Origin: Thermoplasmatota archaeon
Lineage (GTDB): Archaea; Thermoplasmatota; E2; JACPAO01; JAHFTW01
DNA: 64,000 nt
Reading direction: 5' to 3'
NCBI GenBank assembly: GCA_041601615.1
Contig: JBFIHX010000001.1
Location: forward strand, 352,001 to 416,000
The notes below the pieces were generated by a model. That model was not told where the DNA came from, made no database searches, and saw only the letters and a list, made by a program, of their open reading frames with translations. Numbering within the stretch: position 1 is the first letter of the stretch; each line of letters opens with the position of its first letter. Position numbers and translations under genes: made by a program. Positions 1-17,275 of the stretch are shown piece after piece.

Positions 1-265
1 TTGCTCCAGTCGAGTCGTTGGACTTCGAGGGGTGCTTCGTGGTAGACGAGTTGCAGCACTTCGTCGAGGCCTTCCCAGGCAAATGCGGTGCGCAGAATGT
101 CGTGGCGGGTGACGAGGGTGCGCCAGGCGGCTTCGAGGGCGTCGAGGTTGATGGGTCCGTCGAGGTGGAAGGCGCTTTGTTCGACGTAGACGCCGGTTTC
201 GGGTTCACGCAGGGAGTGGAAGAGCATGCCTTCCTGCATGGGGGTGAGGGGGTAGGCGTCGGCGA
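1..265 (-). other. NRPS domain: start of the fourth condensation domain (DCL-type, after the E domain)
   Basis: DAYPLTPMQEGMLFHSLREPETGVYVEQ...RHDILRTAFAWEGL, the typical start of a C domain downstream of an epimerase. Confidence 0.85.
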
Positions 266-3200
266 CTTGGCTGGTGCGGCCGGCGAGGGCGCGTTGCAGT
301 TGGGCGGCTGGGGCGCGTACGAGGGGGAAGCGGGCGGCTTCGTTGCTGCCTTGGCGCTCGGCGCGGGCTTTCCAGGTCTGGGCCATGTCTTGCAGGACTT
401 GTTGGAATCGGTCGGCGACGCGTTGGATGGTTGCTTCGTGGTGGATAGAGTCCGCATACGAAAATCGCATGGACAATTGGCCGTGGGTGACGGCGCCGTT
501 GAGTTCCAGCACGCGGTTGCGGGCGCCGACTGGTGCTACGTCGTCGCCGTGGGCGTCGTCGAGCATGCGCAGTTTGGCAGGGGGCCCGTCGCTGGGCGCG
601 TCGTCGAATCGGCCAAGATAATTGAAGGAGACTTCGGGCGCGGCGAGGGCCGCAAGTTGGGCGCGGGCTGCGTTGGGTCCGAGGTATTCGAGGAGGCCGT
701 GTCCGATTCCTCGGTTGGGGACGGCGCGTAGGGTTTCGCGTACGGCGTCGAGGGTGGCGTCGTTGCTGGTGCCGGGCAGGTCGATGCGCAGGGGGTAGGT
801 GGTGGTGAACCATCCGACGGTGCGGTTGGTGTCTACGTCGTCGAGGATGTCTTCGCGGCCGTGGCCTTCCATGTCGACGAGGACTTGGTTTTGGCCGGTC
901 CATTCGGCAAGGGCGGTGGCGAGGGCGGCGAGGAGGGCTTCTTCGGTGCGGGCACCACTGGCGCGGGGTAGGTCGCGAAGGAGTGCTTCGGTGTAGTCGC
1001 GGCCCAAGGTGACGTGGATGTGTTGTTCGTGATCGGTGGTGTTTTCGCCGTCGCTGTCGCGGGGTAGGCGGGTGTCTAGGGTTTGTTGGGTCCAGTAGGG
1101 CAGTTGTGCTTGGAGTTCCTCGTCGTGGGTGGCGTGGTCGACGAGTTTGGTTGCCCAATCACGGAAAGCCGTGGATTTGGGGGGTAGTTCGGCTTCGGGG
1201 TCGGCAAACAGGGTTTCGAGGTCTTCGAGGATGATGCGCCACGAAACGCCATCCACGACCAAGTGGTGCACGGCGATCAGCAGTTTGCGAGGACGTTCGG
1301 CGCCGAGGTCGAAGAGGACGGCGCGCACGTTGTGGCCGGTGGTGGGGTCGAGACTGGCTTGGGCTTCTTGGCAGGCTTCGAGCATCGCGGCGTCGGCGGC
1401 GGCGGCCGAATGGTCTCCGAGTCCGATGCGGGCGTAGGCGTCATGACTCGCGGCGTCGGGGGAAACGTGGTCTTGGGTCCAGCCATTGGCGCCGGATTGG
1501 AAGCGCAATCGTAGTGCGTCGTGGTGGGACAGGATGCGTTGGATGGCCTGTTCTATGGCGGTGTCCGGAACCGAGTCGGCGACTTCGAGCAACACGGACT
1601 GGTTGAAGTGGTGGCGTGCGGGCAGGTCGCGGGCAAAGAACCAGTGCTGAATGGGGGTGAGCGGCACGGTTCCTTCGACGAGTCCTTGCTCGGCTTGCAC
1701 TTCCTTTTCCGTGGCAGCCACGGCGGCGAGGGCGGCTACGGTTTGGTGGTCAAACAGGGCGCGGGTGGTGATGGCGAGGCCGCGTTTTTGGGCCCGGGCG
1801 ACCACTTGGATGCTCAGAATGCTGTCGCCGCCAAGTTCGAAGAAGTTGTCGTGGATGCCGACGCGGGGCACGCGCAGCACTTCTTGCCAGACTTTGGCAA
1901 GTTCCGCTTCGCGGGGGGTGCGAGGTGCTACGAAGGTGGCGCTGCTGGTGAGGGCCGAGGCGCTTGGGTCGGGAAGGGCGCGGCGGTCGACTTTGCCGTT
2001 GGGTGTGAGCGGCAGGGCGTCGAGGACCACGAACGCAGAGGGGACCATGTGGCCGGGGAGCCTAGTTTCGAGGTGTTGCCGGCAGGTGGCTGCGTCGGTG
2101 TTGCCGGTGAGGTAGGCGACGAGTCGTTTGTCGCCGGGTACGTCTTCGCGCGCCATGACGATGACCTCCGAAACGTCAGGGTGTTCGAGGAGCGTGGATT
2201 CCACTTCTCCGAGCTCGATGCGGTAGCCGCGGATCTTGACTTGGTGGTCGATGCGGCCCAAGAATTCCAGTTGGCCGTCGGCCAGGCGGCGTACGAGGTC
2301 GCCGGTGCGGTAGAGTCGAGCACCTGGTTTTTCGGGGTGCGGGATGAATCGGTCGGCGGTGAGTTCGGGGCGGTTGTGGTAGCCTCGTGCGAGGCCTGCT
2401 CCGCCGGCGTGCAGTTCGCCGGGGACTCCGATGGGCACGGGTCGGCCGTTGGCGTCGAGTACGTGGGCTTCCATGTTGGGAAGTGGGTGGCCGATGGGCA
2501 GGACGCGGCGTGGGGGGTCTTCGGCAAAGTGCGCGGTGACGCAGACGCTGGTTTCGGTGGGTCCGTACGCGTTGACGAATCGGCGGCCTTTGCTCCAGTG
2601 TTGCACGAGGGGCGGGGCGCAGGCTTCTCCGGCGACGATGAGGGTGTGGAGGCGAGGAAAATCGGTGTTGGTGTCGAGGGTGGCAAGTGCCGTGGGAGGG
2701 AGTGTTGCGAGGGTGATGTGTTGGTCTTGGAGCATGTGGGCCAGGTCGTCTCCGGCGAGGGTTGTGCCGGCGGAAGGGAGGACGAGGGCGGCGCCGTGTG
2801 TGAGGGCCATGAGCCATTCCCAGACGCTGGCGTCGAAGCTTGCGGAGGCAAATTGTAGGACGCGGTCGCCTGGGCCGGGGGCAAATAGGACGCCGTGGGA
2901 CATGGCGAGGTTTGCGGCTCCCAGATGCTCGAGGAGGACACCTTTGGGTTGGCCGGTGCTGCCGCTGGTGTAGATGATGTACGCGAGGTCGTCGGGCGCA
3001 ACGACGGGGAGTGCTACGGCTTCAGCGGGATCATTGGATCCGGGTCCGTCGAGCAGGTACAATCGGTCGCCGTCCACGGGCAATCGTTCGGCGAGGTCTG
3101 TGTGGGTCAAGACGAGGCGGGGGGCTGCGTCTTCGATCATGAATGCGAGTCGTTCGCGGGGGTAGGACGGGTCGAGGGGAATGTAGGCAGCACCGGCTTT

Positions 3201-6200
3201 CAAGACGGCGAGGACTGCAATGGTGGTGTCGAGGGAGCGCCTGGTGGAGATGCCGACGAGGTCGCCGTGGCGAATGCCGAGGCCGATGATGCGGTGGGCA
3301 AGGTGGGTGGATGCGGTGTCCAATTCTGCATACGTCAATTCGGCGTCGCCTTGGATGAGGGCGGGCGCGTCCGGGGTGGCTTGTGCTTGGGCCGAGAACA
3401 TGGTGTGCAACACGGCGGGCTCAGGCAGTGCGCGTTTGGTTTGGTTCCAGGATTCGATTTGTGCTTCTTCGGCGGCTTCCAGCATGGATGCATGGGCCAC
3501 GGCGCGGTCGGGTTCGGCCACCATGGCAGCGAGGAGAGCCGTGAAGTGGGTCGCCATGCGCTCGGCGGTTTCGGGGGCAAAGAGGTCGGTGCTGTATTCG
3601 AGGAATCCGTCCATTTCTGCCGCGTCGTCGCCGTCGGTGAGTGCGAGGGTGAGGTCGAATTTTGCGGTCTCGGCGGGGACATGGAAGTGGCTCCATTGCA
3701 GTTCGTTGGGGCCCGGTTCGCTCGGGGTTTGGGCGCTGGCTTGGAGTAGGAAGGCAACTTGGAACAGGGGGGTTCGGTCGAGTTCGCGGGCGATGCCGAG
3801 TTCTTCGACGACGTGTTCGAGGGGCGCTTCTTGATGGGCGTAGGCGTTCAGTGCTGTGGTTTTTGCCTGGGCAAGCAGGGTGCGGAAGGAGGGCGTGTCG
3901 GAGAAGTCGGCGCGGAGGGCGAGGGTGTTGACGAAGAATCCGATGAGGTTGTGGGTTTCTTCGTGGTCGCGTCCGGCGATGGGGGTGCCGACGGCGAAGT
4001 CCTCTTGGCCGGAGTAGCGGTGCAGGAGGGATTGCCATGCGGCGAGGAGGCCCATGTGCAGGGTTGCTCCGGTGTCGTTGCAGAGGGAGCGGAGGCCGTC
4101 GAGGACGGTGCCGGGGATGCGAACGGGTGTTGTTGCGCCGTGGTTGGTGGGGGCGGCAGGCCGTGCGTGGTCGGTGGGCAAGTCGAGGGGCGGTAGGCTA
4201 GCTAGTTGTTGTTTCCAGTAGGCGAGTTGGTCGTCGAGTGTGCCGGCTTCGAGGCGGCTGCGCGTGGCGGCTGCGTGTTGTGCGTAGGTGCGTGGGAGGT
4301 TTTTGAAGCGGGGCGGGGCGCCTTGGATGCGTGCGTGGTAGGCGAGGCGTAGGTCGGCTAGGAGTACGTCTTCGCTCCATTCGTCGAAGGCGATGTGGTG
4401 GACGCCGATGAGCAGGATGTGGTGTTCGGGGGCGAGGGTTACGAGGGTGGCGCGCACGATCGGGCCGGTGGCGAGGTCGAATGGTTCGTGGGCGGCGTCT
4501 TGGAGGATGCAGCGGGCGTCTTCCTCGTCTTCGGCTTTGATGATTTGGAGGGGGATTTGGTCTTCGGCTAGGAGTTTGGGAGTGGGTATGCCGTGGTCGT
4601 TGCGGGGGAATATGGTGCGCAGGGTAGGGTGGCGGTGGATGACTTCGCCCAGTGCTTGTTGTAGGACGGCGGTGTCGAGGGGGCCTTGGATGCGGCGCAG
4701 TACGGCCATGTTGTATGCGGCGCTTGCGGGGTCCAGGTCGTGCAAGAACAGCATGCGTTGTTGTTGGAAGCTGATGCTGCCTGTTGCGTCCGAGGCGTCG
4801 TTTGCGTCGTTGGCTTCGTGTAGGCTGTCTACGAGGGCGGCTTGGGCTTCGAGAGTCAAGGCCGCAAGGAGGTCGCGCAGAGGTACTTCCACGGCGAGAA
4901 CGCTGCGGATGCGGCTTGCGAGTCTGGTGGCAAGCAAGGAGTGTCCGCCGCGTTGGAAGAAGTGGTCGTGGACGGTTACGTTGGAGACTTGCAGGAGATC
5001 TTGCCAGAGTTCGGCCAGTGCTTGCTCGGTGTCGGTGCGGGGCGCTACGAGTTTGGCGTCGTATCCGGGGGCGGTGGCGGGGTCGACGGATTCGGGCGCG
5101 GGGAGTGCTGCTAGGTCGATTTTTTTGTTCGGGGTGAGGGGCAGTTCGTCCAGGGTGACGAAGGTGGACGGGACCATGTGTTGGGGTAGTCGCTTGCCGA
5201 GGGCTTTGCGAAGGCCGCTTGCATCAAAGCCTGGTTCCATGGCGACGTAGGCGACGAGCCTTGCGCTGCTTCCGGCTGTGCTGTGGGCGACCACGGCGGC
5301 TTGTTGGACTCCGGGTTCTTGGCGTAGGGCGTGTTCGATGTCGCCGGGTTCGATGCGGAAGCCGCGTACCTTGAGTTGGCGGTCCATGCGGCCGTGAAAC
5401 AGCAGCGTTCCGTCGGGGGCCCAGCTTGCTAGGTCGCCGGTTCGGTACATGCGCTTGCCGGGTTCGAATGGATCTTCTACGAATTTCTCGGCGGTCAATT
5501 CGGGTCGTTCGAGATAGCCGGCGCCAACGCCTGCTCCGGCAAGGCACAGTTCTCCGCGTACACCCACGGGGGCGAGTTGGTTTTGGGGGTCGAGGATGTA
5601 GGCGCGGGTGTTGGCGAGGGGGCGGCCGATGGGCATGGCCGCTTCGTCTCCGGTTACGGGGTGGATCGTGGACCAAATGGTGGTCTCGGTGGGTCCGTAG
5701 ACGTTCCACAGGGAGGCTGTTCGTGATCGAAGCGATTGGGCAAGGTCCATGGGGAGGGCTTCGCCGCCGCACAGGGCGCGTAGGTTGGGATTTCCGCCCC
5801 AGTCTTCATCGACGAGCATGCGCCAGGTTGCGGGGGTTGCCTGCATCAGGTTCGCGTTGTCGGCAAGCGGTGCAAGGTACCGTGGGTCCGTGGCTTGTTT
5901 CTTGGTGGCGAGGACGATGGTGGCGCCGCTTACGAGGGGCAAGAACAGTTCCAGTGCGGCGATGTCGAAGCTGATGGTGGTGACGGCGAGCAGTCGGTCC
6001 GTGGATTGTACGTCGAGTTGGGCGCGGAAGGCTCCGAGGAGGTTGCGCAGTGCTTCGTGGCCGACCATGACGCCCTTGGGGGTGCCGGTGCTGCCGCTGG
6101 TGTGCAGGACGTACGCTAGGTCGGTGGAAAGATCCGTGCGGGGGGCAATGTGGACGTCGTTGTCGGTTTCGGGGGCGTCCACGGCGAGGCGGATGCAAGA

Positions 6201-9200: not shown

Positions 9201-11219
9201 GGCGCCGTGGTGGATGGGGGTGCCTTTGGGTTGGCCGGTGCTGCCGCTGGTGTAGAGTACGTAGGCGGTGTCTTCGGACGCGACGGCCGCGGGCGCAAAT
9301 TCGTTGCCTACCTGCATCGTGGAGTCGGCGGCGGGCATGGGGACGCGGCGGGCGTCGCTGGCGGGCAGAACGTCGTCGAGTCCGGTGCCCATCAGGACGT
9401 GGCTGGCGCCGCTGTCTTGGAGCATGAACGCGAGTCTTTCTTTCGGGTACGCGGGGTCGAGGGGGAGGTAGGCGGCGCCGCATCGCAGGACGGCGAGGAC
9501 GGCGGCGACGAGATCCGGGCTGCGTTCGGAGCAAAGGCCCACGAGTGCACCGGGGCGGACGCCGGCTGCTTGTAGGGTGGCGGCGAGGACGGTGGCTCGC
9601 TCGTCCAATTCCTGGTAGGTCCAGGCTTCCGGCGCCATCTGGATGGCGATCTTGTCCGGGTGCTGCTGGGCTGTCTGGGCAATCCATTCGTGGACGGTGT
9701 GCGTGGGTGTCGGAAGGGCCGGTGTGGTTCCTAGGGCGAGGAGCCGGGCTTGTTCATCCTCATCCAGCAGGGCCAACTGAGCGAGGGGGGCGTCGGGAGA
9801 TGCGCAGGCGCTTTTCATCAATTGTTCCAAGTGCTGGGCCATGCGAGCGATGGTGGATTCGTCAAACAGGTCGGTGCTGTATTCGATCCAGCCCTGGAAT
9901 CCATCCGGGTCGTCGAGCATGTACAGGGACAAGTCGAATTTGCTTGTGGGGCTGACGACGAATTGAGCTTCCATGTCGAGGCCGTGCGGCTTCGGGGTTT
10001 CGTCGAGGGTGTTTTGCAGCGAAAACAGGGCCTGAAACAGGGGCGTCCGGCTTGGGTCGCGTTCGGGTTGGACCGCTTCGACGACGTGTTCGAAAGGAAC
10101 ATCTTGGTGGCTGTAGGCTTCGAGGCAGGTGCTGCGGGTGCGGGAAAGGAATTCTCGGTAGGAGGGCGCTCCCGTGAAGTCGGCGCGCAGAACGAGGGTG
10201 TTGACAAAGAATCCAATCAAGTCCTCGGTGTCTTTGTGGGTGCGGCCGGAAACGGGAGAGCCCGTGGCCAGATCATCTTGTCCTGAGTACCGGTGCAGGA
10301 GCGATTGGAAGGCGGCAAGGAGCCCCATGTAGACCGTGACGTTTTCGCTTCGACACAGGTCCCGGAACCGCTGGCTGACCGTGGCGGGCAGCCGGAACGA
10401 ATGCATGGTGCCCTGGGAGCCGTGCACGGCGGGCCTAGGGCGATCCGTGGGAAGATCGAGAGCTGGGAGGCCCGACAATTTGGTCTTCCAGTAGTTCAAG
10501 TGCGCTTCGGAGCCGGTTTTGGGTAGGTTGCGTTGCCAGGCGGCGTAGTCGGCGTATTGAATCCGGGGCTCGGGAAGGGGTGCGGTTTCCTTTTGGGTCG
10601 CGGCGGCGGTGTAGTGGGCCGCGAGTTCTTGCTGGAATCGCAGTTCGCTGCCTTCGTCGAAAGCAACGTGGTGGACGGTGACGAGTAATTCGTGGTCTTC
10701 GGCGCCGAGACGCAGCAACCGAGCCCGGAGGACGGGTCCGGTCGTGGGGTCGATGGGCTCTTGGGTTTCCTCAAGTCCGTGCTGGTTGCGGGCTGCTTGT
10801 TGCGCTTCCGGGGCCAGGTCTTGCAGATCATGCAGGGGCAAGGGTACCGAAGCGGCGGGATGGACTACCTGGACGGGACCGTTTGCACCTGCCTCGAACG
10901 TGGTGCGAAGGACACTGTGGCGGCGCACGATCGCGGCAAGTGCCTGCTCGAGTGCCGGGATCTGCAAGGGGCCGCGCATGCGGTAGGCGTTGACCATGTT
11001 GTATGCAGCATTTTTTGGGTCCAATTCGTGCAGAAACCAGAGCCGTTGCTGCGCGTAGGACAGCGGCGCTGGAGCTGCAGGGTCGATCCGTGGAATCGAA
11101 AGCAACGCCGGCTTTGGGCCCTTTTTTTGCACCCATTTTGCCAGCAATGCCGCCTTTGCCTCCGAGAGGACGGACGGGTCAGATGCGGGTTTTTTTGACA
11201 CTTGGTCGGTTGGGTCCAT
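1..11219 (-). CDS. Multimodular nonribosomal peptide synthetase (C-A-T-C-A-T-C-A-T-E-C...), 3' end beyond the left window edge, >3739 aa
   Basis: Translated by hand from ATG at 11219 (MDPTDQVSKKPASDPSVLSEAKAALLAKW...PLSYAQQRLWFLHELDP). Every NRPS motif sampled down to position ~3 is in the same frame: three (Y/H)TSGSTGxPKG, three YGPTE, GGHSL x2, GGDSI, HHLVVDGVSW, EGHGRE, RTVGWFT and YPLTPMQEGMLFH. The ORF track lists no minus-strand ORF in this frame, consistent with no in-frame stop inside the window. Confidence 0.95.
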   Translation of the reverse strand, partial: MDPTDQVSKKPASDPSVLSEAKAALLAKWVQKKGPKPALLSIPRIDPAAPAPLSYAQQRLWFLHELDPKNAAYNMVNAYRMRGPLQIPALEQALAAIVRRHSVLRTTFEAGANGPVQVVHPAASVPLPLHDLQDLAPEAQQAARNQHGLEETQEPIDPTTGPVLRARLLRLGAEDHELLVTVHHVAFDEGSELRFQQELAAHYTAAATQKETAPLPEPRIQYADYAAWQRNLPKTGSEAHLNYWKTKLSGLPALDLPTDRPRPAVHGSQGTMHSFRLPATVSQRFRDLCRSENVTVYMGLLAAFQSLLHRYSGQDDLATGSPVSGRTHKDTEDLIGFFVNTLVLRADFTGAPSYREFLSRTRSTCLEAYSHQDVPFEHVVEAVQPERDPSRTPLFQALFSLQNTLDETPKPHGLDMEAQFVVSPTSKFDLSLYMLDDPDGFQGWIEYSTDLFDESTIARMAQHLEQLMKSACASPDAPLAQLALLDEDEQARLLALGTTPALPTPTHTVHEWIAQTAQQHPDKIAIQMAPEAWTYQELDERATVLAATLQAAGVRPGALVGLCSERSPDLVAAVLAVLRCGAAYLPLDPAYPKERLAFMLQDSGASHVLMGTGLDDVLPASDARRVPMPAADSTMQVGNEFAPAAVASEDTAYVLYTSGSTGQPKGTPIHHGALCNLLAAMQNRLEVTPEDTLLSITTLSFDIGTMELLLPLITGATLSLVSRETARDSEALAALVPTATLMQATPATWRMLVDAGWPKVPESHRRLRALSGGEPLAPDLSRAILARAAQLYNGYGPTETTIYSTAHRVRPQDLDAPRIPIGTAVPGTTLTVVDRHGNLTLPGVPGELRIQGHGVATGYLGRPELSAEKFLTAPDGTRTYCTGDLVRWLPDGTLDYLGRIDRQVKIRGFRIEPGEIEVALRSHKQVTNAVVSVHRSQAEPRLVAYVVAKTPDEPELPALLRQHLAAQLPSHMVPAAFVTLPAIPLLPNGKVDTAKLPAPDEDHLARTATHEPAQTATEHALAALWKEVLGVENVGRADDFFALGGHSLLATRLVARIREDQGITLPLRHVFATPKLRDLATAIDQALAIDAGPDEPRPEPLANRTGLPLSPAQERMWFLHQMDPTSAAYNMAFAHQLTGSLDRDALGAAIQAVVTKHEALRTVVLEAEGAPVQVVLDASEAQVDLAFHDLRTLETDPQTERLHAIMDESAAQPFDLQHGPVLRATLLCRADDDHVLLLVLHHFAFDEHSHQVLLNDLGAAYTAARNGEPSMGPAELQYGDFAHWQAHQDPAPKRAALESWSQRLLAARPLDLPTTHAAPATRTFHGAHHHFKLQVPRPQLQAVSASASATPFMTLLAAFQATLHRFSGQIDFAVAAPSSGRPSEHWNNVVGMFVNTLAIPAHLDAAQTFQNHLTNVRATCSEAYAHDVAYAELASHIHAQRPHATGELAHAFFSFEHANTNMDAIPGLHMETWMVPTPTSKFDVSLFVQDTPAGIRASLEYSTDLFDAAWAQRFAASFQHLLDAAITEPNTPVGNLPLQSPAEASSLLAFNPDATPIMAVSAEAAVRNHATQTPNAVAIECEGIPCTYQALNTRVDAIAARIQARGAGPGTMVAVCMPRGFDLVASLLAVHRVGAAYVPLDPDHPASRTALVLADADIQLVLCTTSTRNALPSSCIRLAVDAPETDNDVHIAPRTDLSTDLAYVLHTSGSTGTPKGVMVGHEALRNLLGAFRAQLDVQSTDRLLAVTTISFDIAALELFLPLVSGATIVLATKKQATDPRYLAPLADNANLMQATPATWRMLVDEDWGGNPNLRALCGGEALPMDLAQSLRSRTASLWNVYGPTETTIWSTIHPVTGDEAAMPIGRPLANTRAYILDPQNQLAPVGVRGELCLAGAGVGAGYLERPELTAEKFVEDPFEPGKRMYRTGDLASWAPDGTLLFHGRMDRQLKVRGFRIEPGDIEHALRQEPGVQQAAVVAHSTAGSSARLVAYVAMEPGFDASGLRKALGKRLPQHMVPSTFVTLDELPLTPNKKIDLAALPAPESVDPATAPGYDAKLVAPRTDTEQALAELWQDLLQVSNVTVHDHFFQRGGHSLLATRLASRIRSVLAVEVPLRDLLAALTLEAQAALVDSLHEANDANDASDATGSISFQQQRMLFLHDLDPASAAYNMAVLRRIQGPLDTAVLQQALGEVIHRHPTLRTIFPRNDHGIPTPKLLAEDQIPLQIIKAEDEEDARCILQDAAHEPFDLATGPIVRATLVTLAPEHHILLIGVHHIAFDEWSEDVLLADLRLAYHARIQGAPPRFKNLPRTYAQHAAATRSRLEAGTLDDQLAYWKQQLASLPPLDLPTDHARPAAPTNHGATTPVRIPGTVLDGLRSLCNDTGATLHMGLLAAWQSLLHRYSGQEDFAVGTPIAGRDHEETHNLIGFFVNTLALRADFSDTPSFRTLLAQAKTTALNAYAHQEAPLEHVVEELGIARELDRTPLFQVAFLLQASAQTPSEPGPNELQWSHFHVPAETAKFDLTLALTDGDDAAEMDGFLEYSTDLFAPETAERMATHFTALLAAMVAEPDRAVAHASMLEAAEEAQIESWNQTKRALPEPAVLHTMFSAQAQATPDAPALIQGDAELTYAELDTASTHLAHRIIGLGIRHGDLVGISTRRSLDTTIAVLAVLKAGAAYIPLDPSYPRERLAFMIEDAAPRLVLTHTDLAERLPVDGDRLYLLDGPGSNDPAEAVALPVVAPDDLAYIIYTSGSTGQPKGVLLEHLGAANLAMSHGVLFAPGPGDRVLQFASASFDASVWEWLMALTHGAALVLPSAGTTLAGDDLAHMLQDQHITLATLPPTALATLDTNTDFPRLHTLIVAGEACAPPLVQHWSKGRRFVNAYGPTETSVCVTAHFAEDPPRRVLPIGHPLPNMEAHVLDANGRPVPIGVPGELHAGGAGLARGYHNRPELTADRFIPHPEKPGARLYRTGDLVRRLADGQLEFLGRIDHQVKIRGYRIELGEVESTLLEHPDVSEVIVMAREDVPGDKRLVAYLTGNTDAATCRQHLETRLPGHMVPSAFVVLDALPLTPNGKVDRRALPDPSASALTSSATFVAPRTPREAELAKVWQEVLRVPRVGIHDNFFELGGDSILSIQVVARAQKRGLAITTRALFDHQTVAALAAVAATEKEVQAEQGLVEGTVPLTPIQHWFFARDLPARHHFNQSVLLEVADSVPDTAIEQAIQRILSHHDALRLRFQSGANGWTQDHVSPDAASHDAYARIGLGDHSAAAADAAMLEACQEAQASLDPTTGHNVRAVLFDLGAERPRKLLIAVHHLVVDGVSWRIILEDLETLFADPEAELPPKSTAFRDWATKLVDHATHDEELQAQLPYWTQQTLDTRLPRDSDGENTTDHEQHIHVTLGRDYTEALLRDLPRASGARTEEALLAALATALAEWTGQNQVLVDMEGHGREDILDDVDTNRTVGWFTTTYPLRIDLPGTSNDATLDAVRETLRAVPNRGIGHGLLEYLGPNAARAQLAALAAPEVSFNYLGRFDDAPSDGPPAKLRMLDDAHGDDVAPVGARNRVLELNGAVTHGQLSMRFSYADSIHHEATIQRVADRFQQVLQDMAQTWKARAERQGSNEAARFPLVRAPAAQLQRALAGRTSQVADAYPLTPMQEGMLFHSLREPETGVYVEQSAFHLDGPINLDALEAAWRTLVTRHDILRTAFAWEGLDEVLQLVYHEAPLEVQRLDWS
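340..1675 (-). other. NRPS domain: epimerization (E) domain
   Basis: PLTPIQHWFF, HHFNQSVLL, HHLVVDGVSWRIILEDL, DMEGHGRED, RTVGWFTTTYP and FNYLG. Boundaries approximate. Confidence 0.92.
1720..4785 (-). other. NRPS module 3: C(HHIAFDE)-A(Phe-type)-T(GGDSI)
   Basis: A domain reads FDASVWE..TLATLPP..LIVAGE..NAYGPTETSVC, giving code DAWTIAAVCK (GrsA PheA is DAWTIAAICK). T domain DNFFELGGDSILS is the variant that precedes E domains. Confidence 0.88.
4835..7905 (-). other. NRPS module 2: C(HHFAFDE)-A(Gly-type)-T
   Basis: A domain reads FDIAALE..MQATPATW..ALCGGE..WNVYGPTETTIW, giving code DILQLGVIWK (Gly-type). T domain is DHFFQRGGHSLL. Confidence 0.88.
7975..11075 (-). other. NRPS module 1: C(HHVAFDE)-A(Gly-like variant)-T
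   Basis: A domain reads FDIGTME..MQATPATW..ALSGGE..YNGYGPTETTIY, giving code DIMQLGGIYK. T domain is DDFFALGGHSLL. Confidence 0.85.
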
Positions 11220-11322
11220 CCTACGACTCTGCTCGAATCCGCTGACCTCTTTAGCGGTTCGGGACGCCGCGTTCGCTGCAAATGCGCCGTGGGGCCCGGC
11301 CACAAGGCAAAAGAGCGCGCCC

Positions 11323-12267
11323 GTGTCGGGCCTGATTGGAGCTCCGGACGTGGAAGACGAACCTTTGGTTGTGGATGGTCTTGTGAAGCGCTACGGCAAA
11401 CTGGTCGCGGTGGACAACGTCTCGTTGCAAGCCAAGCGCGGCCAGGTGCTCTGCGTCCTGGGCACCAATGGCGCCGGCAAGACCACGACCTTGGAGGTTT
11501 CGCAAGGGGTTCGAAAGGCGACCGAGGGGCATGTGCGCATTTTTGGCGAGGATGCCTGGGGTGCCGCCAAGAACCTCAAGCGCCGCATGGGATTCCTTCC
11601 CCAGCAGTTTACAGGCTTTCCCATGCTGACCGTGAAGGAAAACTTGGATTACTTCAGTGCCATCTATGATGCGCGACCCGACACGGAGGGTCTGTTGGCA
11701 AGCCTTGGATTGGAGCACTGCACTCATCAGCGGTTTGGAACCTTGAGCGGGGGCACCATGCGCCGGGTGGCCATCGCGACGGCGCTTGTGAACGACCCTG
11801 AGCTGTTGTTTTTGGACGAACCGGCCGCGGGCGTAGATCCGGCCAGCCGCCGACATTTGTGGGGCATCGTGGAATCGCTTCGCAGCCGGGACCGCGCCAT
11901 TGTCTTGACGACCCACGCCATGGATGAGGCAGAGCGCCTTGCCGATGAAGTGGTGGTGATGCACAAGGGCCGCATTGTTGCCCGTGGCCCCCCGGCACAG
12001 GTTCGCTTGGAGCACGGCGGCGGCGCCATGCTTCGATTGGCGGGAGTGCCCGAGCCGATTCCTGAAATTCTTGCCCGTCGCACCGGTTTGCTCCGAGACG
12101 AGGACGACGCCTTGCTCCTGCCCCTGGCGAGTGCTGCAGAAGGTTCGTCCATCATGGCAAGCCTGGTCCAAGCCGGCGTTCCCTTCCATGAGGTTTCCAT
12201 TCGAGAGCCGAGCCTAGACGACGCCTTCGTTCGACTGGTGGGCACCGGCGCGGAGGCACGCGCATGA
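11323..12267 (+). CDS. ABC transporter ATP-binding subunit (DrrA/NodI-like exporter)
   Basis: Walker A GTNGAGKTT, signature LSGG, Walker B LFLDEP, H-loop TTH. Divergent from the NRPS. Confidence 0.93.
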   Translation: MSGLIGAPDVEDEPLVVDGLVKRYGKLVAVDNVSLQAKRGQVLCVLGTNGAGKTTTLEVSQGVRKATEGHVRIFGEDAWGAAKNLKRRMGFLPQQFTGFPMLTVKENLDYFSAIYDARPDTEGLLASLGLEHCTHQRFGTLSGGTMRRVAIATALVNDPELLFLDEPAAGVDPASRRHLWGIVESLRSRDRAIVLTTHAMDEAERLADEVVVMHKGRIVARGPPAQVRLEHGGGAMLRLAGVPEPIPEILARRTGLLRDEDDALLLPLASAAEGSSIMASLVQAGVPFHEVSIREPSLDDAFVRLVGTGAEARA

Positions 12268-13337
12268 ACCGCCGTGCCGTCGGCGCCGAGTGTCAGTACA
12301 TTTTGCGCATCTGGACGCGCTCCGGTTCCCACATCGTCATGTCGGTGGTGATGCCGGTGATTCTCTTGCTTGCCCTGGGATTCTTCTTCGGCGCGTCGAG
12401 CACGCCAGCACCCCATGTGTTCGTCGAAGATCGAGCCGACTCCGAAGCATCCCATGACTTGGTGGCCAACCTCACCCAATCCAGCTTGTTTGAACTCCAA
12501 TCGGGCAAGGCCCCCGCGCAAGACACCGCCACCATTTCGTCGTGGATGCACGCCCAGAACCTAGACGCATACGTGCACATCCCCGCAGGCTACGGCAACG
12601 CCTCAGCGCCCGAAACCGTGCAGGTCTTTGTGGTGGACGCCGATTCCTACGCCGGCAAAACACTGCTTGCATCCATCCAGCACGCGCTTGCTGCGCCCAC
12701 CGAAACAACCAGTCCCCTTGCCGTGTTGCCCATTGCGCCCGCCCCCGCCTACCGCGCCATGCTGCTTCCCGGCATCATCGGCCTCTCCATCGTCACTACC
12801 GGCGTCTCCGTGGGCTTTGCCAGCATCTCCGAATTGCGCCACCATGGCCTCTTGCAGCGCCTCGCTGCCTCCCCGCTTGGAAAAGCAGAATGGCTCCTGG
12901 GCCGCATGATGGGCGTTGGCGTCGTAAGCCTCGTCTCCGTGCTCGTGCTCCTCGTCGTGAGCCGCATCGTCTTCGGTGCCACATTCACCCTTGGCATCTG
13001 GACGCTCCCGCTCGTCTTGGGAGGAACCTTGGTGTTTGCAGGCCTAGGAACCCTGTTGGGTCTCGCCGTAGAGCGCCCCGAAGCGGGAGCCGCCGTGATG
13101 AACCTCGTGCTCATGCCGCTGATTCTGCTTTCCGGCGCGTTCTTCGACCTCTCCAACAGCCCCGTCGTGCTGCAATGGATCGCCTTGGCCTCGCCCTTGA
13201 CACACCTCGTGGACGGACTACGCGCCGACATGCTCGGCATCGGCGACGCGGCAGTGCCGGCCCTCGCCATGGTCGGATTTGCACTCCTGCTCCTCGTCGG
13301 TGGAGCACGCCTCATTCGGTGGACGGAACGCCCGTAG
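12264..13337 (+). CDS. ABC-2 type exporter permease
   Basis: N-terminal TM helix, an extracytoplasmic loop and further TM helices; motifs LSGAFF..L and SPLTHLVDGLR. ATGA overlap with the ATPase gene. Confidence 0.9.
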   Translation: MNRRAVGAECQYILRIWTRSGSHIVMSVVMPVILLLALGFFFGASSTPAPHVFVEDRADSEASHDLVANLTQSSLFELQSGKAPAQDTATISSWMHAQNLDAYVHIPAGYGNASAPETVQVFVVDADSYAGKTLLASIQHALAAPTETTSPLAVLPIAPAPAYRAMLLPGIIGLSIVTTGVSVGFASISELRHHGLLQRLAASPLGKAEWLLGRMMGVGVVSLVSVLVLLVVSRIVFGATFTLGIWTLPLVLGGTLVFAGLGTLLGLAVERPEAGAAVMNLVLMPLILLSGAFFDLSNSPVVLQWIALASPLTHLVDGLRADMLGIGDAAVPALAMVGFALLLLVGGARLIRWTERP

Positions 13338-14100
13338 AATCCTGCGGCCACGGGAATACTCGAACCAAAGCCGGCTCCGGTCCATCCAAGGCCAACGCCA
13401 AACCGACGCTCGAATGACCCGGAATCGCGGGCCGCTGAAGCCGAAACGACAAGCCTGGCCCCAGCGGATCCGGCACCGCCTCGCCCTGCCACGTCGCCGT
13501 GTCCACTTGTTCCAATGCCAGAGCCAGTCCATGGCCACGCAACTTGCCGTATGCTTCCTTGGCGCTCCAAGCCTGCAAAAACGCCGAACGCCACTCCGAT
13601 GCAGACCCGGACGCAGCAAGCAATGCCTGCTCAGCCACGGAGAAAAACCGCAGCGAAACGTCCTCCACATCCTCGGCGCGTTCAGGAACCTCCACATCCA
13701 CCCCAACTTCCCGATGCCACGCCACCGCAACCACACCCAAGCCGCCCGCGTGGCTCGTGTTGAACTGCAAGGGCGAAGGCTGCAAGGGCTCCTGGTTCTC
13801 CATCAATCGAGGCTTGCCGTGGGACTTGCCACAATGGCGACAGGTTCGATCAAATTGCAGCGCCGACGGATCGCGCCGCGTGTATCCGGCAAGGATGGCT
13901 CGAAGTGCTCCGCGACGGGCGCGGAATCGGGCCGCATCCACGGGATCTCGAAATCGCTTGGCCGCGCTTCGTTCCGCATCCTCCAGGACTTCTTCCGGCA
14001 CGATTGCGGCCTCCGTATCGGTATCGAACCACCATAAATGCACGGCGCCAGCGCGAAGGTCCAGAAGATCCAACAACCCCACACTTGGCCCATGGCTCAT
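13312..14100 (-). CDS. Sfp-type 4'-phosphopantetheinyl transferase
   Basis: HGKP, FNTSHAG, VGVDVE and WSAKEAYGKLRGHGL motifs. Start could be 14100 or 14127. Confidence 0.93.
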   Translation of the reverse strand: MSHGPSVGLLDLLDLRAGAVHLWWFDTDTEAAIVPEEVLEDAERSAAKRFRDPVDAARFRARRGALRAILAGYTRRDPSALQFDRTCRHCGKSHGKPRLMENQEPLQPSPLQFNTSHAGGLGVVAVAWHREVGVDVEVPERAEDVEDVSLRFFSVAEQALLAASGSASEWRSAFLQAWSAKEAYGKLRGHGLALALEQVDTATWQGEAVPDPLGPGLSFRLQRPAIPGHSSVGLALALDGPEPALVRVFPWPQDSTGVPSTE

Positions 14101-14147
14101 GTGCCTGCCGCCGCCACGGCTAAGCACACCCCCACTTCGACCCCCGG

Positions 14148-14900
14148 GTGCCCGCCGTACCAGCGCGACGCATCACGCAAATTCCTGGCTCGTTGCCGAC
14201 CCGGTTGCAGTTGTTTGTGGTTCCCCACGCGGGCGCGGGTGCGTCCGCCTACCGAGGCTTCCGGTCTCTGCTGCCCGAGGACGTGGAGCTCTGCCTCGTG
14301 CATCTGCCGGGCCGAGAAGGCCGCATCCAAGAGCCACTGCTTCGGGATATGCTGGACTTGGTCGATGATTTGCTGCCGTCCCTGCAAGCAGCCACTGCGG
14401 GCCCCTATGCGTTCTTTGGCCACAGCATGGGCGCTATACTTGCCTTCGAAGCAACCATGCGAATCTTGGCCACGGGCGGCCAAGCCCCGCGCCGCCTCTT
14501 CGTCAGTGCCCACCGCGCCCCGCACCTGTCCGATCCGCGAGGGCCACGGCACATGGCCACGGATGAACAACTCCTCGAAGAACTGGCGCGCCTTGGCGGA
14601 ACTCCCCCGGAAATCCTCGCCCACCCCGAACTGATGGCCATGGTCTTGCCCGTGTTTCGAGCCGACTTGGAAGCACTCCATTCCAGGACCAACTCCCGAC
14701 TCGAGGCCCTTCCCGTGCACATCACCGCACTTGGCGGCACCCAAGACCCCACCGTAGGCGAACCGGGACTCGCCGCTTGGCAAGCACTGGCGCCCGCACA
14801 CGGGTTCCAACTTCATTGGTTCGAAGGCGGCCATTTCTACTTCCAAGACAACCCCGCCTTCGCCTCATTCTTGACCAAGCAGCTCCAGGCCCTTTACTGA
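14148..14900 (+). CDS. Type II (editing) thioesterase, GrsT/RifR-like
   Basis: PHAGAGASAY, LPGREGR, FFGHSMGA nucleophile elbow and GGHFY. Confidence 0.94.
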   Translation: MPAVPARRITQIPGSLPTRLQLFVVPHAGAGASAYRGFRSLLPEDVELCLVHLPGREGRIQEPLLRDMLDLVDDLLPSLQAATAGPYAFFGHSMGAILAFEATMRILATGGQAPRRLFVSAHRAPHLSDPRGPRHMATDEQLLEELARLGGTPPEILAHPELMAMVLPVFRADLEALHSRTNSRLEALPVHITALGGTQDPTVGEPGLAAWQALAPAHGFQLHWFEGGHFYFQDNPAFASFLTKQLQALY

Positions 14901-14901
14901 A

Positions 14902-16026: not shown

Positions 16027-16264
16027 GGAGCGTCGAGCCCGGCCGGGGTCCAAGAAGTTTTTCAGCCGGACTCCAAGGCGTCATCGGGGGTTTTGGACAG
16101 CGGATGGATGATGAGCCACGATCCACGGAAACGACATTTGCCTCAAAATAACCACGCGCTCCGCCTCCGATGGGCCCTCAAACCATCATTTCCACTCCAG
16201 GGGACAGAGTACTTTTTATGACCTCCCCCGAAGAGGTTTACTGGACCTCCCCATATCGCCGTTC

Positions 16265-16618: not shown

Positions 16619-17275
16619 GTGGACGGGGTGGTCTTCGACTTCGATGGCGTCATTGCGCAAAGCATGGAACAACACGCCGAGGCCTACCGGCGGATACTGG
16701 GCCCGCTTGGAGTCGAAGTGCATAACGCGGATGTGTTTGCACGGGAAGGCGCACGCAGCGAATCCATCATCCGGGGTTTCCTCGAAGACGCTGGACAAAA
16801 CCCTTCTGCCGCCGAAGTAGCACGACTGGCCAACGAGAAGCAAGCCGTGTTTCGTGCGCTCGGGACACCACCCTTGTACCGGGGCGCCGAAGCCATGGTG
16901 CGCGCCGTGCAAGAAGCGATTCTTACGGGACTCGTCACCGGCACGCGCCTACAGAATCTCGAGCACCTGATTCCCAATCTCCTGCCTGGATTCGGCGCAG
17001 TAATGAGCCAAGAAACCTACACCCACGACAAACCCCACCCAGAACCATACCAGAAGGCCGCCGAGGCCATGAACGTGGACCCGAACAGCTTGGTGGCCGT
17101 GGAAAACGCCGTACGAGGCATCCAAAGTGCCCGCGCCGCCGGCTACGGACTCGTGTACGGCATCGCCACCACCATGGAGGCGGAAGCGCTCCAGGCCGCC
17201 GGGGCAGATCAAGTGTTTTTGGACCACAGCCAGCTCGCCACTGCCCTGCTTCAACTGGCCGCTTTGAACAAGTAG
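16619..17275 (+). CDS. HAD-superfamily phosphatase (beta-PGM/CbbY-like)
   Basis: VVFDFDGVI motif I, KPHPEPY and VENAVRGIQSARAAG. Confidence 0.9.
   Translation: MDGVVFDFDGVIAQSMEQHAEAYRRILGPLGVEVHNADVFAREGARSESIIRGFLEDAGQNPSAAEVARLANEKQAVFRALGTPPLYRGAEAMVRAVQEAILTGLVTGTRLQNLEHLIPNLLPGFGAVMSQETYTHDKPHPEPYQKAAEAMNVDPNSLVAVENAVRGIQSARAAGYGLVYGIATTMEAEALQAAGADQVFLDHSQLATALLQLAALNK

What the first reader, a model, noticed from the sequence alone, without database searches (positions are those of the whole stretch)
1..14900. Multimodular NRPS biosynthetic gene cluster inside an archaeal (Thermoplasmatota-like) chromosome
Seen in the sequence: a >3.7 kaa NRPS with at least three full modules, an epimerase and a fourth C domain. 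Beside it are an ABC exporter pair, an Sfp PPTase and a type II thioesterase whose stop is 1 nt from the stop of a geranylgeranyl-reductase-family gene. The rest of the contig carries archaeal markers (LonB, Elp3, archaeal ProRS, NadM, CoaD-YjjX). Established knowledge: multimodular NRPSs are typical of bacteria and fungi and are reported only rarely in archaea. Inference: this archaeon encodes a system to activate, edit and export a D-amino-acid-containing peptide, which may be an undescribed archaeal natural-product pathway.
Basis: partly seen in the sequence, partly recalled or inferred. Interest (0 to 1): 0.93.

Follow-up and report, generated by a model that had tools for sequence, protein, structure and literature searches.

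The report
NRPS-PKS gene island in marine archaeon
A 28-kb gene cluster for a peptide-polyketide natural product really does sit in the chromosome of a marine Thermoplasmatota archaeon, an uncommon but not unprecedented case of an archaeon keeping bacterial-type assembly-line chemistry.

Summary
The window starts 352 kb into a 436-kb contig. The NRPS is complete at 5,980 aa: five C-A-T modules, an E domain in module 3 and a terminal TE. A stand-alone A-T gene and a KS-AT-ACP PKS gene follow it, each translationally coupled. A DrrAB-like ABC pair, an Sfp-type PPTase, a type II thioesterase and a GGR-fold flavoprotein complete a ~28.5-kb island. The island lies 3' of tRNA-Arg(GCG), between archaeal Hel308/Cgi121 and HAD-GcvT-TrkAH-Elp3.

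It is not an assembly artefact. A second species of the genus carries the same cluster with both junctions. A relative from another genus shows the empty site. Contigs from another sample bridge the 14.9-kb junction at even depth. Tetranucleotide composition fits the genome.

The closest bacterial NRPSs are at most 47% identical. Closer relatives are an unnamed 5,975-aa orthologue (55%) and an NRPS in a distant Thermoplasmatota bin.

Between the two species dN/dS is 0.16-0.28. In this genome, however, the fifth A domain has lost core residues.

Archaeal NRPSs are already known from methanogens and from bulk surveys, so this is a new member of a known kind. Interest is moderate.

The parts
3..11219 (-). 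NRPS gene, N-terminal 3,739 of 5,980 codons (ATG at 11219; the open frame reaches a GTG at 11303). The whole gene is G000:C1:345277-363219. Architecture: C-A-T, C-A-T, C-A-T-E, C-A-T, C-A-T-TE.
   Evidence: P0005 is the called gene. Still to the left of the window on the same strand: A-T gene at C1:343409-345280 and KS-AT-ACP gene at C1:340353-343412. Each start overlaps the preceding stop as ATGA.
9738..11069 (-). C domain of module 1 (His motif HHVAFDEGS)
   Evidence: 349.7 bits
8190..9662 (-). A domain of module 1 (approximate bounds). Pocket code DIMQLGGIYK, Gly-like.
   Evidence: The extraction rule and the code table are recalled.
7971..8162 (-). T (carrier) domain 1
6576..7904 (-). C domain of module 2 (HHFAFDEHS)
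5070..6512 (-). A domain of module 2 (approximate bounds). Code DILQLGVIWK, Gly-type.
   Evidence: recalled rule
4830..5024 (-). T domain 2
3456..4775 (-). C domain of module 3 (HHIAFDEWS)
1935..3392 (-). A domain of module 3 (approximate bounds). Code DAWTIAAVCK, Phe-type.
   Evidence: 1amu (GrsA PheA) matches at E 7e-120.
1722..1904 (-). T domain 3 (GGDSI type)
375..1676 (-). Epimerisation domain (HHLVVDGVS)
3..263 (-). Start of the C domain of module 4. It follows the E domain and carries HHTLLDGWS just outside the window.
11323..12267 (+). ABC transporter ATPase, DrrA-like, divergent from the NRPS gene
   Evidence: TIGR01188, 206 bits, below its cut-off
12264..13337 (+). ABC-2 permease, DrrB-like
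13312..14127 (-). Sfp/HetI-type 4'-phosphopantetheinyl transferase
14148..14900 (+). Type II thioesterase (GHSMG)
14902..16053 (-). Divergent geranylgeranyl-reductase-fold flavoprotein. It lies beside this cluster family in five instances: four assembled adjacencies and one inferred from a shared contig length.
16054..16627 (.). Right edge of the island. Homology to the cluster-free relative G010 resumes at window 16628 (C1:368628), at the HAD gene.
16619..17275 (+). HAD hydrolase, first native gene to the right. SLOG, GcvT, TrkA, TrkH and Elp3 follow.

Best explanation
This is a genuine chromosomal ~28.5-kb hybrid NRPS-PKS biosynthetic island in a marine Thermoplasmatota archaeon.

Location and history. 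The island lies immediately 3' of tRNA-Arg(GCG). On its left are Hel308 and Cgi121; on its right are HAD-GcvT-TrkAH-Elp3. The core enzymes are of bacterial type. The island was acquired before two species of the genus diverged and has been kept under purifying selection since.

Inferred mechanism:
1. The Sfp-type PPTase primes seven carrier domains.
2. The stand-alone A-T protein loads an amino-acid starter.
3. The KS-AT-ACP module extends it with one malonyl unit. No KR, DH or ER is present, so the beta-keto group is kept.
4. The first C domain of the NRPS takes over this chain.
5. Five modules add, by pocket code, Gly-like, Gly, Phe (epimerised to D-Phe), Phe-like and an unassigned residue.
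6. The terminal TE releases the product.
7. The type II TE clears misprimed carriers, and the DrrAB-like ABC pair exports the product.
8. The conserved GGR-fold flavoprotein probably carries out a reductive tailoring step.

Status of the steps. Shown here: gene content, domain order, intact catalytic motifs, genomic location and conservation. Inferred: the order of action, the substrates, the product and the flavoprotein's role.
For: Location:
- The window is in the middle of a 436-kb contig of a genome that is 93% complete with 0.28% contamination.
- Left flank: Hel308 is found in 40 of 41 relatives. Identity is 83-88% within the genus, 62-74% within the family and 42-55% beyond. Cgi121 (66 bits against a cut-off of 40) and tRNA-Arg follow it.

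Independent assembly:
- G002, another species of the genus, carries the cluster on six contigs. They reproduce Hel308-tRNA-PKS, NRPS-ABC-PPTase-TEII-GGR and GGR-HAD-...-Elp3.

Empty site:
- G010 has Hel308-Cgi121-tRNA-Arg, then 1.8 kb, then HAD-GcvT-TrkA-TrkH.

Reads:
- A 17.5-kb contig of X1 covers window 9227-22000 with no differences.
- A 2,577-nt contig of X2, a different sample, covers 13654-16230 across the junction.
- Depth is flat in all 4 runs.

Composition:
- The island's tetranucleotide distance is 0.0168, the 77th percentile of 297 genome windows.
- All 63 bacterial NRPS loci compared lie farther away (0.0267 or more).
- Codon-position GC matches the flanking genes.

Distribution:
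- Condensation domains occur in 2 of 32 family genomes and in 9 of 401 sampled phylum genomes.

Selection:
- dN/dS between G000 and G002 is 0.16-0.28 for the synthetase genes, PPTase and TEII, and 0.05-0.11 for the ABC pair and the GGR-like gene. dS is 1-2.4, as in the flanking genes.

Domains:
-.
- The A-T gene exceeds the cut-off of TIGR01733, the amino-acid adenylation domain model (389 against 317 bits).
- KS has TACSTS, HGTGT and NIGH; AT has GHSLG and RAFH; all carriers keep the Ser.

GGR-like protein:
- AlphaFold2 model with pLDDT 86.
- Best fold matches are archaeal GGRs 3oz2 and 3atq (TM 0.77-0.78). PHBH-type enzymes and halogenases reach 0.63 at most.
Against: - In this genome the fifth A domain departs from the consensus at core positions: SGSDG for SGSTG, DD for FD, YGLTE for YGPTE, HRTGD for YRTGD, QINIRG for QVKIRG, and HGRVD for NGKVD (loss of the A10 Lys). 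G002 and P0053 are canonical at all of these. The last module may therefore be inactive here. I could not check reads for that stretch.
- Gene order (NRPS, then A-T, then PKS) is not colinear with the proposed order of action.
- The first C domain looks like an ordinary peptide-bond-forming (LCL-type) C domain by its N-terminal motif. This is a recalled criterion, not a subtype classifier.
- Pocket codes were extracted with a motif-anchored rule that I recalled, and compared with recalled code tables.
- dS is saturated, so the dN/dS values are rough.
- No integrase and no att-like repeat of 11 nt or more marks the island ends.
- All four runs come from one study, and X1 may be the source sample.
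Confidence: 0.8

Rival explanations
1. The cluster is bacterial DNA joined to an archaeal contig by mis-assembly, or placed in the bin by error.
For: NRPS and PKS enzymes are typical of bacteria. All 80 loci returned from species-representative genomes carry bacterial titles. In run X3 two contigs end at 14846 and 14890, next to the junction. That run has only about 6x depth.
Against: - Both junctions are reproduced in a second species, G002, at 62-88% protein identity.
- A relative shows the empty site.
- Contigs of X1 and X2 bridge the junction with no differences, and depth is flat and co-varies across 4 runs.
- Composition fits the genome and is unlike all 63 bacterial NRPS loci compared.
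- No protein above 56% identity exists among the 853 candidates scored from a 5.8-billion-protein library.
- The island sits in the middle of a 436-kb contig with archaeal genes on both sides.
Confidence: 0.02
2. The island is real but is a decaying relic in this genome. The NRPS frame is still open, but the last module cannot load its amino acid, so no full-length product is made.
For: The G000 fifth A domain has 26 unique departures at columns where the four other A domains compared agree. G002 has 18 and P0053 has 12. The G000 departures hit the A3, A4, A5, A7, A8 and A10 core motifs, including the A10 Lys-to-Arg change. The third species of the genus (G001) has no Condensation domain and a rearranged site, which shows that the locus can be lost or is not needed.
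Against: - The 18-kb frame has no stop.
- dN/dS of the C-terminal third (0.217) is no higher than that of the rest (0.18-0.20).
- Module 5 is the module best conserved with G002 (69% identity).
- All other catalytic motifs are intact.
- Arg may partly stand in for Lys, and loading in trans is possible.
Confidence: 0.2
3. The A-T and KS-AT-ACP proteins do not prime the NRPS. They make a separate small product or act after the NRPS. The N-terminal C domain would then take an acyl donor from elsewhere, which would make the product an N-acylated pentapeptide.
For: The gene order is NRPS first, then A-T and PKS. An N-terminal C domain is often linked with N-acylated peptides (stated in PMC2812497, passage read). 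The genome also has a separate fatty-acid or PUFA-like megasynthase that could supply acyl chains.
Against: - The three genes are translationally coupled by ATGA overlaps.
- They are conserved together in G002, and G145 has a homologous PKS.
- The NRPS ends in a TE, so nothing can follow it on the line.
- The cluster has no acyl-AMP ligase or acyltransferase.
Confidence: 0.2

Closest known systems
Bacterial hybrid type I NRPS-PKS assembly lines (closest named relatives: NRPSs of Acidobacteriota/Thermoanaerobaculia, Myxococcota, Longimicrobiaceae)
   Same: Same domain families, core motifs and module logic. Same accessory set of Sfp-type PPTase, type II TE and DrrAB-like exporter.
   Different: - Identity is only 39-47% over module 1.
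- The host is an archaeon.
- Three C domains carry HHxxxDE instead of HHxxxDG. E occurs at this position in 3 of 781 motifs in the 118 bacterial homologues examined.
- A GGR-fold flavoprotein is a conserved neighbour.
Methanobrevibacter ruminantium M1 NRPSs Mru_0068 and Mru_0351, and the rumen-methanogen NRPS clusters
   Same: NRPS genes in an archaeal chromosome, attributed to transfer from bacteria, with unknown products and an exporter gene alongside (PMC2812497, PMC8024701, bioRxiv 10.1101/2020.05.19.105130; passages read).
   Different: - Those hosts are host-associated methanogens of other phyla, and the NRPSs have 2-4 modules. Mru_0351 ends in a reductase domain (PMC8024701).
- Here the host is a marine, non-methanogen-type Thermoplasmatota.
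- The line has five modules plus a PKS module, with the PPTase inside the cluster.
- I did not compare the sequences directly.
GrsA/TycA-type Phe-activating A-T-E initiation module (PDB 1amu, 9bfd)
   Same: Module 3 has a Phe-type pocket code (DAWTIAAVCK) followed by T and E domains. It matches 1amu at E 7e-120 and TycA at 1.7e-140.
   Different: Here it is an internal elongation module with its own upstream C domain, followed by a C domain that comes after the E domain. The code comparison rests on recall.
Archaeal geranylgeranyl reductase (Thermoplasma acidophilum Ta0516, PDB 3oz2; Sulfolobus GGR, 3atq)
   Same: Same fold (TM 0.77-0.78) and an N-terminal FAD-binding Rossmann motif.
   Different: - Only 18% identical.
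- 60.8 bits on TIGR02032 against a cut-off of 158.8.
- Patchy distribution: 4 of 41 relatives.
- Always found beside the NRPS-PKS genes rather than lipid genes. Its substrate is unknown.
tRNA-adjacent genomic islands
   Same: A 28.5-kb accessory segment begins about 30 bp after the 3' end of a conserved tRNA-Arg gene and is missing at that site in a relative.
   Different: No integrase, no flanking direct repeat of 11 nt or more, and no copy of the tRNA 3' half. Composition is already like the host's.

Membership tests
Modular non-ribosomal peptide synthetase | Repeated C, A and T domains above the curated thresholds, in module order | tested here: met
   PF00668, PF00501, PF13193 and PF00550 are all far above their gathering scores. 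There are 6 Condensation-type, 5 A and 5 T domains in one 5,980-aa protein.
Modular non-ribosomal peptide synthetase | Catalytic core motifs present: C HHxxxD, A-domain cores A3-A10, T-domain Ser, TE GxSxG | tested here: inconclusive
   Present in modules 1-4, in the TE (GWSFG) and in all T domains. The module-5 A domain of this genome lacks several invariant core residues, including the A10 Lys. Motif definitions are recalled.
Modular non-ribosomal peptide synthetase | Adenylation, thiolation and condensation activity | not testable with these tools
   Needs enzyme assays.
Epimerisation domain | Condensation-superfamily domain directly after a T domain and before a C domain, with E-type motifs | tested here: met
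   Window 375-1676, 235 bits on PF00668. Position is T3-E-C4. The strings PIQHWF, HHLVVDGVS, EGHGRE, RTVGWFTTTYP and FNYLGRF are present. Calling them E-type is recalled; no dedicated E-domain model was run.
Type I modular polyketide synthase | KS with Cys-His-His, AT with GHSxG, and ACP in one protein | tested here: met
   PF00109, PF02801, PF00698 and PF00550 match. TACSTS, HGTGT, NIGH, GHSLG and GGHS are present. It is outside the window at C1:340353-343412.
Sfp-type (group II) PPTase | ACPS-superfamily domain, about 230-270 aa, two-lobed, encoded with its megasynthase | tested here: met
   PF01648 scores 51.8 bits against a cut-off of 25. The protein is 271 aa. The HetI model gives 101.9 bits, below its equivalog cut-off of 370. 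The WSAKEAYGK string is present.
Type II thioesterase | Stand-alone PF00975 protein of about 250 aa with GxSxG, inside an NRPS/PKS cluster | tested here: met
   149.6 bits against a cut-off of 26.4; 250 aa; GHSMG.
Geranylgeranyl reductase family | Score above the family threshold (TIGR02032) | tested here: not met
   60.8 bits against a cut-off of 158.8.
Geranylgeranyl reductase family | GGR fold | tested here: met
   The model has pLDDT 86.2. The top 7 PDB matches are GGRs, with TM 0.74-0.78 normalised by query length.
Integrase-mediated tRNA-site genomic island | Insertion next to a tRNA gene, absent at that site in relatives | tested here: met
Integrase-mediated tRNA-site genomic island | Integrase gene and flanking direct repeats derived from the tRNA 3' end | tested here: not met
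   No repeat of 11 nt or more. No copy of the tRNA 3' half with 6 or fewer mismatches in 30. No integrase among the island ORFs scanned.
Archaeal (Thermoplasmatota) genome | Archaeal rRNA and archaea-specific housekeeping genes on the same contigs; relatives named in that phylum | tested here: met
   RF01959 scores 747.9 bits on contig C2. LonB and Elp3 are in the window. Hel308 with its archaeal domain 4 and Cgi121 adjoin the island. Named relatives. No marker-gene phylogeny was run.

The most novel reading that the evidence does not exclude
This is not a one-off bacterial import. It may be one member of an archaea-adapted NRPS-PKS family that moves or persists within Thermoplasmatota.

The C-A segments of modules 1 and 2 from G000, G002, the unnamed 5,975-aa orthologue and a distant, high-GC Thermoplasmatota bin (G145) form one clade. 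That clade excludes all 118 sampled bacterial relatives.

The members share two features:
- The rare HHxxxDE condensation motif.
- A divergent archaeal geranylgeranyl-reductase-fold flavoprotein. It sits next to the cluster in two different gene arrangements, which suggests recruitment of an archaeal lipid-type reductase as a tailoring enzyme.
Probability: 0.4. Interest if true: 0.65.

Novelty: new member of a known kind. Interest (0 to 1): 0.5.

Why it matters
No non-ribosomal peptide from an archaeon had a known structure in the papers I read: the M. ruminantium NRPS products are stated to be unknown (PMC8024701). Archaeal NRPS examples described there come mainly from methanogens.

This case is unusually clean:
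- A complete, contiguous cluster with defined insertion edges.
- An empty site in a relative.
- A second species carrying the cluster, with signs of purifying selection.

That makes it a good candidate for heterologous expression. It is also a test case for how a bacterial-type assembly line becomes established in an archaeal chromosome. This lineage already carries an order-wide ACP-dependent megasynthase with its own PPTase domain, next to acyl-CoA carboxylase genes.

The conserved GGR-fold partner and the HHxxxDE C domains are concrete, testable oddities.

The cluster does not change any general principle. Bulk antiSMASH surveys have probably already counted it.

Tried and rejected
- Fatty-acyl-AMP ligase reading of the A-T gene: rejected. 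It exceeds the cut-off of the amino-acid adenylation model (389 against 317 bits). It is 34-38% identical to the NRPS's own A-T segments.
- Lipopeptide with a starter C domain: not supported. No acyl ligase is present, and the first C domain has the ordinary N-terminal motif (a recalled criterion).
- Integrase or att site at the island ends: none found.
- Donor lineage: not resolved. The nearest bacterial sequences are 39-47% identical and come from several phyla. Sister relations differ between the two trees.
- The 13-row 'archaeal-only' clade of modules 3-5 is not used as evidence. The bacterial rows were each protein's best match to module 1, so comparators for modules 3-5 were not sampled.
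It did not return the genome that holds P0053.
It returned one 1,554-bp locus.
- Context of P0053: only inferred, from the equal contig length (49,164 bp) of P0053 and the GGR-like P0124. No Hel308 on a contig of that length appeared among the 120 rows listed.
- Expression: no RNA holder was listed.
- Parts of window 3000-22000 without a bridging contig in X3 and X4, and joints with sides under 30 letters, were disregarded.
- Archaeal promoter signals: not assessed. The promoter tool models sigma-70 only, and the 103-bp NRPS/ABC intergenic stretch shows no clear TATA box by eye.
- NadM and CoaD-YjjX were not located among the ORFs scanned.
- Supplementary tables of PMC12144867 and PMC10304266 may already list NRPS clusters per archaeal phylum. 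Supplements were closed and I did not see them.
- Searches for prior print on this lineage found no paper describing an NRPS-PKS of marine Thermoplasmatota or Marine Group III. These were keyword searches of an open-access library only.

Full report
**What is there**

The finding's stretch is the right-hand two thirds of a larger cluster. The window is G000:C1:352001-416000 of a 435,996-bp contig. The genome has 2.79 Mb in 30 contigs, at 93% completeness and 0.28% contamination.

The minus-strand frame that fills window 3-11303 continues leftward to C1:345277. It is one open frame of 6,008 codons from a GTG, or 5,980 aa from the ATG at window 11219 as called in the protein library.

Pfam and the positions from the genome search give this architecture: C-A-T, C-A-T, C-A-T-E, C-A-T, C-A-T-TE.

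Two more genes follow on the same strand. In both cases the ATG overlaps the preceding stop as ATGA.
- A 623-aa A-T protein. It exceeds the cut-off of the amino-acid adenylation model TIGR01733 (389 against 317 bits), so it is not a fatty-acyl ligase.
- A 1,019-aa KS-AT-ACP polyketide synthase.

To the right of the NRPS start lie five further genes:
- a divergent DrrA-like ABC ATPase,
- an ABC-2 permease,
- an Sfp/HetI-type PPTase on the minus strand,
- a type II thioesterase,
- the convergent GGR-family gene, whose stop is one base from the thioesterase stop.

**Is it archaeal and correctly assembled?**

Flanking genes:
- On the left: a CheB-CheR-PAS-kinase fusion, a glycerate-kinase-like gene, Hel308 with the archaeal helicase domain 4, the KEOPS subunit Cgi121 and tRNA-Arg(GCG).
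- On the right: HAD, SLOG, GcvT, TrkA, TrkH, Elp3, methylmalonyl-CoA mutase and LonB.
- A 16S fragment on contig C2 matches the archaeal model at 748 bits.
- Hel308 occurs in 40 of 41 relatives. Identity falls with kinship: 83-88% in the genus, 62-74% in the family and 42-55% beyond.
- Of the 120 listed Hel308 relatives, 11 carry an organism name. Ten are 'Thermoplasmatota archaeon' and one is labelled 'bacterium'.

Four independent lines argue against a chimera.

1. *A second species.* G002, another species of the genus, carries the cluster on six short contigs. These contigs reproduce:
   - Hel308-tRNA-Arg-PKS,
   - NRPS end-A-T-PKS start,
   - NRPS start-ABC-ABC-PPTase-TEII-GGR-like,
   - GGR-like-HAD-SLOG-GcvT-TrkA-TrkH-Elp3.

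   Protein identities are 51-88% for cluster genes and 67-94% for flanking genes.

2. *An empty site.* G010, from another genus of the family, has Hel308-Cgi121-tRNA-Arg, then 1.8 kb, then HAD-GcvT-TrkA-TrkH. Homology to G000 stops about 30 bp after the tRNA (C1 ~340131) and resumes at the HAD gene (C1:368628). The island is therefore about 28.5 kb.

3. *Reads.* Logan contigs were laid from four marine-metagenome runs of one study.
   - A 17.5-kb contig of X1 covers window 9227-22000 with no differences. X1 may be the source sample.
   - A 2,577-nt contig of X2, another sample, covers 13654-16230 across the junction with no differences.
   - Depth in the NRPS part against the housekeeping part is about 28/27, 6/5.8, 5/4.6 and 3.5/3.3 in the four runs.
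   - Against this reading: in X3 two contigs end at 14846 and 14890.

4. *Composition.* The island's tetranucleotide distance from the genome mean is 0.0168, the 77th percentile of 297 nine-kb windows. Its parts fall at the 84th-93rd percentiles. All 63 bacterial NRPS loci compared lie farther away, at 0.0267 or more.

**Origin and distribution**

Census of Condensation domains:
- 2 of 32 genomes of the family, namely G000 and G002.
- 9 of 401 genomes sampled from the phylum.

G001, the third species of the genus, is 79% complete and has none. Its Hel308 neighbourhood is rearranged exactly where the tRNA should be.

A module-1 search scored 853 candidates of 3,304-10,514 aa, of which the best 120 are listed:
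- the gene itself;
- one unnamed 5,975-aa protein, P0053, 55% identical and collinear over its whole length;
- 118 others at 39-47%. The named ones are Longimicrobiaceae, Myxococcaceae/Corallococcus, Thermoanaerobaculia, Acidobacteriota, Xanthomonas and Streptomyces.

A scan of species-representative genomes returned 80 loci. All carry bacterial titles, at 37-46% identity.

Trees of C-A segments:
- FastTree, 138 rows. Every G000 module pairs with its G002 counterpart and then with the P0053 counterpart, at support 100. The five-module layout therefore predates these lineages.
- IQ-TREE, 41 rows, agrees with FastTree on one further point. Modules 1 and 2 of these three, plus one module of G145, form a single clade at support 99 in both trees. 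G145 is a high-GC Thermoplasmatota bin of another family whose Hel308 is 45% identical.
- Caveats: the G145 contigs are 4-9 kb and hold only cluster genes, so their assignment to that bin is unverified. Bacterial sampling was limited to the best module-1 matches.

dN/dS between G000 and G002:

| Genes | dN/dS |
|---|---|
| NRPS | 0.18-0.22 |
| PKS | 0.16-0.18 |
| A-T | 0.21 |
| PPTase | 0.25 |
| TEII | 0.28 |
| ABC genes | 0.06-0.11 |
| GGR-like | 0.05 |

dS is saturated at 1-2.4, similar to the flanking genes. This fits co-inheritance and purifying selection but gives no dates.

**The GGR-like gene belongs with the cluster**

It is found in only 4 of 41 relatives. G000 and G002 match at 82-84%. 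G006 and G015 have 39% paralogues.

It lies next to cluster genes in five instances:

| Instance | Identity to G000 | Neighbour |
|---|---|---|
| G000 | - | convergent TEII |
| G002 | 82% | convergent TEII |
| P0053 contig (inferred from the equal contig length of 49,164 bp) | 66% | not seen |
| L118, a 1,554-bp metagenome contig | 56% | convergent TEII (50%) |
| G145 contig C66 | 55% | convergent PKS C-terminus (53%) |

Three of its relatives carry the name Thermoplasmatota archaeon, at 44-52% identity.

It scores below the GGR family cut-off (60.8 against 158.8 bits). Its AlphaFold2 model has pLDDT 86 and pTM 0.85. The model matches archaeal GGRs best: 3oz2 at TM 0.78 and 3atq at 0.77. p-Hydroxybenzoate hydroxylases and halogenases reach 0.63 at most.

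**How it probably works**

Catalytic motifs that are shown:
- KS: TACSTS, HGTGT, NIGH.
- AT: GHSLG and RAFH. Reading RAFH as malonyl-specific is recalled.
- All seven carrier domains keep the Ser.
- TE: GWSFG. TEII: GHSMG. PPTase: WSAKEAYGK.

Pocket codes:

| A domain | Pocket code | Reading |
|---|---|---|
| Stand-alone A-T | DAFFMGLIWK | unassigned |
| Module 1 | DIMQLGGIYK | Gly-like |
| Module 2 | DILQLGVIWK | Gly |
| Module 3 | DAWTIAAVCK | Phe; the E domain follows, giving D-Phe |
| Module 4 | DAWTVAAVCK | Phe-like |
| Module 5 | DGLLLRAVI- | unassigned |

I extracted these with a motif-anchored version of the GrsA numbering and compared them with code tables. Both are from memory and need a proper predictor.

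The most economical order of action is:
1. the A-T protein loads a starter;
2. the PKS adds one unreduced malonyl unit;
3. the five NRPS modules extend the chain;
4. the TE releases it.

This order and the product are inference.

Two oddities:
- Three C domains (modules 1-3) read HHxxxDE rather than HHxxxDG. The same holds in G002 and P0053 and in two C domains of G145. E occurs there in only 3 of 781 motifs in 118 bacterial homologues.
- In G000 alone, the module-5 A domain has lost several invariant core residues, including the A10 Lys. This copy may be impaired.

**Comparison with what is known**

All of the following come from passages read:
- Archaeal NRPSs were first reported in Methanobrevibacter ruminantium in 2010 and attributed to bacterial origin (PMC2812497).
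- A 2014 survey found three clusters in 128 archaeal genomes, and the M. ruminantium NRPS products were still unknown in 2021 (PMC8024701).
- Rumen metagenomics found 687 NRPS clusters in 125 archaeal genomes (bioRxiv 10.1101/2020.05.19.105130).
- A 2025 antiSMASH survey counted 581 NRP clusters among 7,731 archaeal BGCs, and 1,359 BGCs in Thermoplasmatota (PMC12144867).
- In marine archaea, terpene clusters are the largest BGC class and T1PKS the next largest (PMC10304266).

My keyword searches found no description of an NRPS-PKS in marine Thermoplasmatota.

The finding is therefore real and well documented, but it is a new member of a known kind.

- The search of earlier findings
- The listing of cluster members
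- The search of protein representatives
- The look-up of encoding contigs (not called)

Noticed in passing
G000:C2:224430-233981 (- strand; locus L119:6430-15981): A second megasynthase of 3,183 aa. Domains: KS-AT, a second KS-like region, four tandem ACPs, KR, DH and a C-terminal PPTase domain. It is flanked by acyl-CoA carboxylase genes (carboxyltransferase, biotin carboxylase, BCCP). A KS of this kind on open frames of about 3,000-3,800 aa is present in 21 of 24 family genomes and 6 of 6 other genomes of the order. It was not found in the 10 genomes from the rest of the class. It looks like an order-wide PUFA- or FAS-like synthase in an archaeal lineage.
   Followed up: partly
G000:C1:345277-349000 (module 5 of the NRPS, left of the window): The fifth A domain of this genome carries SGSDG, DDGS, YGLTE, HRTGD, QINIRG and HGRVD where G002, P0053 and the other A domains have SGSTG, FDGS/FDAS, YGPTE, YRTGD, QVKIRG and NGKVD. 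This may be an inactive module inside an otherwise intact 18-kb frame. It was not checked against reads.
   Followed up: partly
window 3456-11069 (C domains of modules 1-3): The condensation His motif reads HHxxxDE instead of HHxxxDG. It is conserved in G002, P0053 and G145, and occurs in 3 of 781 motifs in 118 bacterial homologues.
   Followed up: partly
window 38342-45349 (- strand): A type I restriction-modification system: HsdR-like 1,118 aa, an unassigned 310-aa ORF, HsdS and HsdM. It sits in the lowest-GC part of the window (0.49-0.57 against 0.62), so it may be another acquired segment.
   Followed up: no
window 46866-48317 (- strand): A 483-aa protein with an N-terminal C39-like cysteine peptidase region. 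The matches are weak: PA2778 family and a bacteriocin-exporter peptidase.
   Followed up: no
G000:C1:332162-335443 (locus L001:162-3443, +): A single 1,093-aa protein that fuses CheB methylesterase, CheR methyltransferase, PAS domains and a histidine kinase.
   Followed up: no
L100 (G001:C241) 2575-4910: In the third species of the genus a 652-aa minus-strand ORF lies next to Hel308. Homology to G000 ends just before the tRNA-Arg position, and no tRNA is found on the contig. The tRNA-Arg site may be a recombination hotspot.
   Followed up: partly
G313, G327, G356 (same phylum, family f10; complete or near-complete genomes of about 1.5-1.7 Mb): These small genomes hold other NRPS-like open frames of up to 7,364 aa. 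They are only 26-33% identical to module 1. NRPS genes therefore occur in at least one more Thermoplasmatota family.
   Followed up: no
window 16266-16406 (+): A small ORF of about 46 aa with a four-Cys zinc-ribbon pattern lies between the GGR-like gene and HAD. It is conserved in G002, and a match exists in G018.
   Followed up: no
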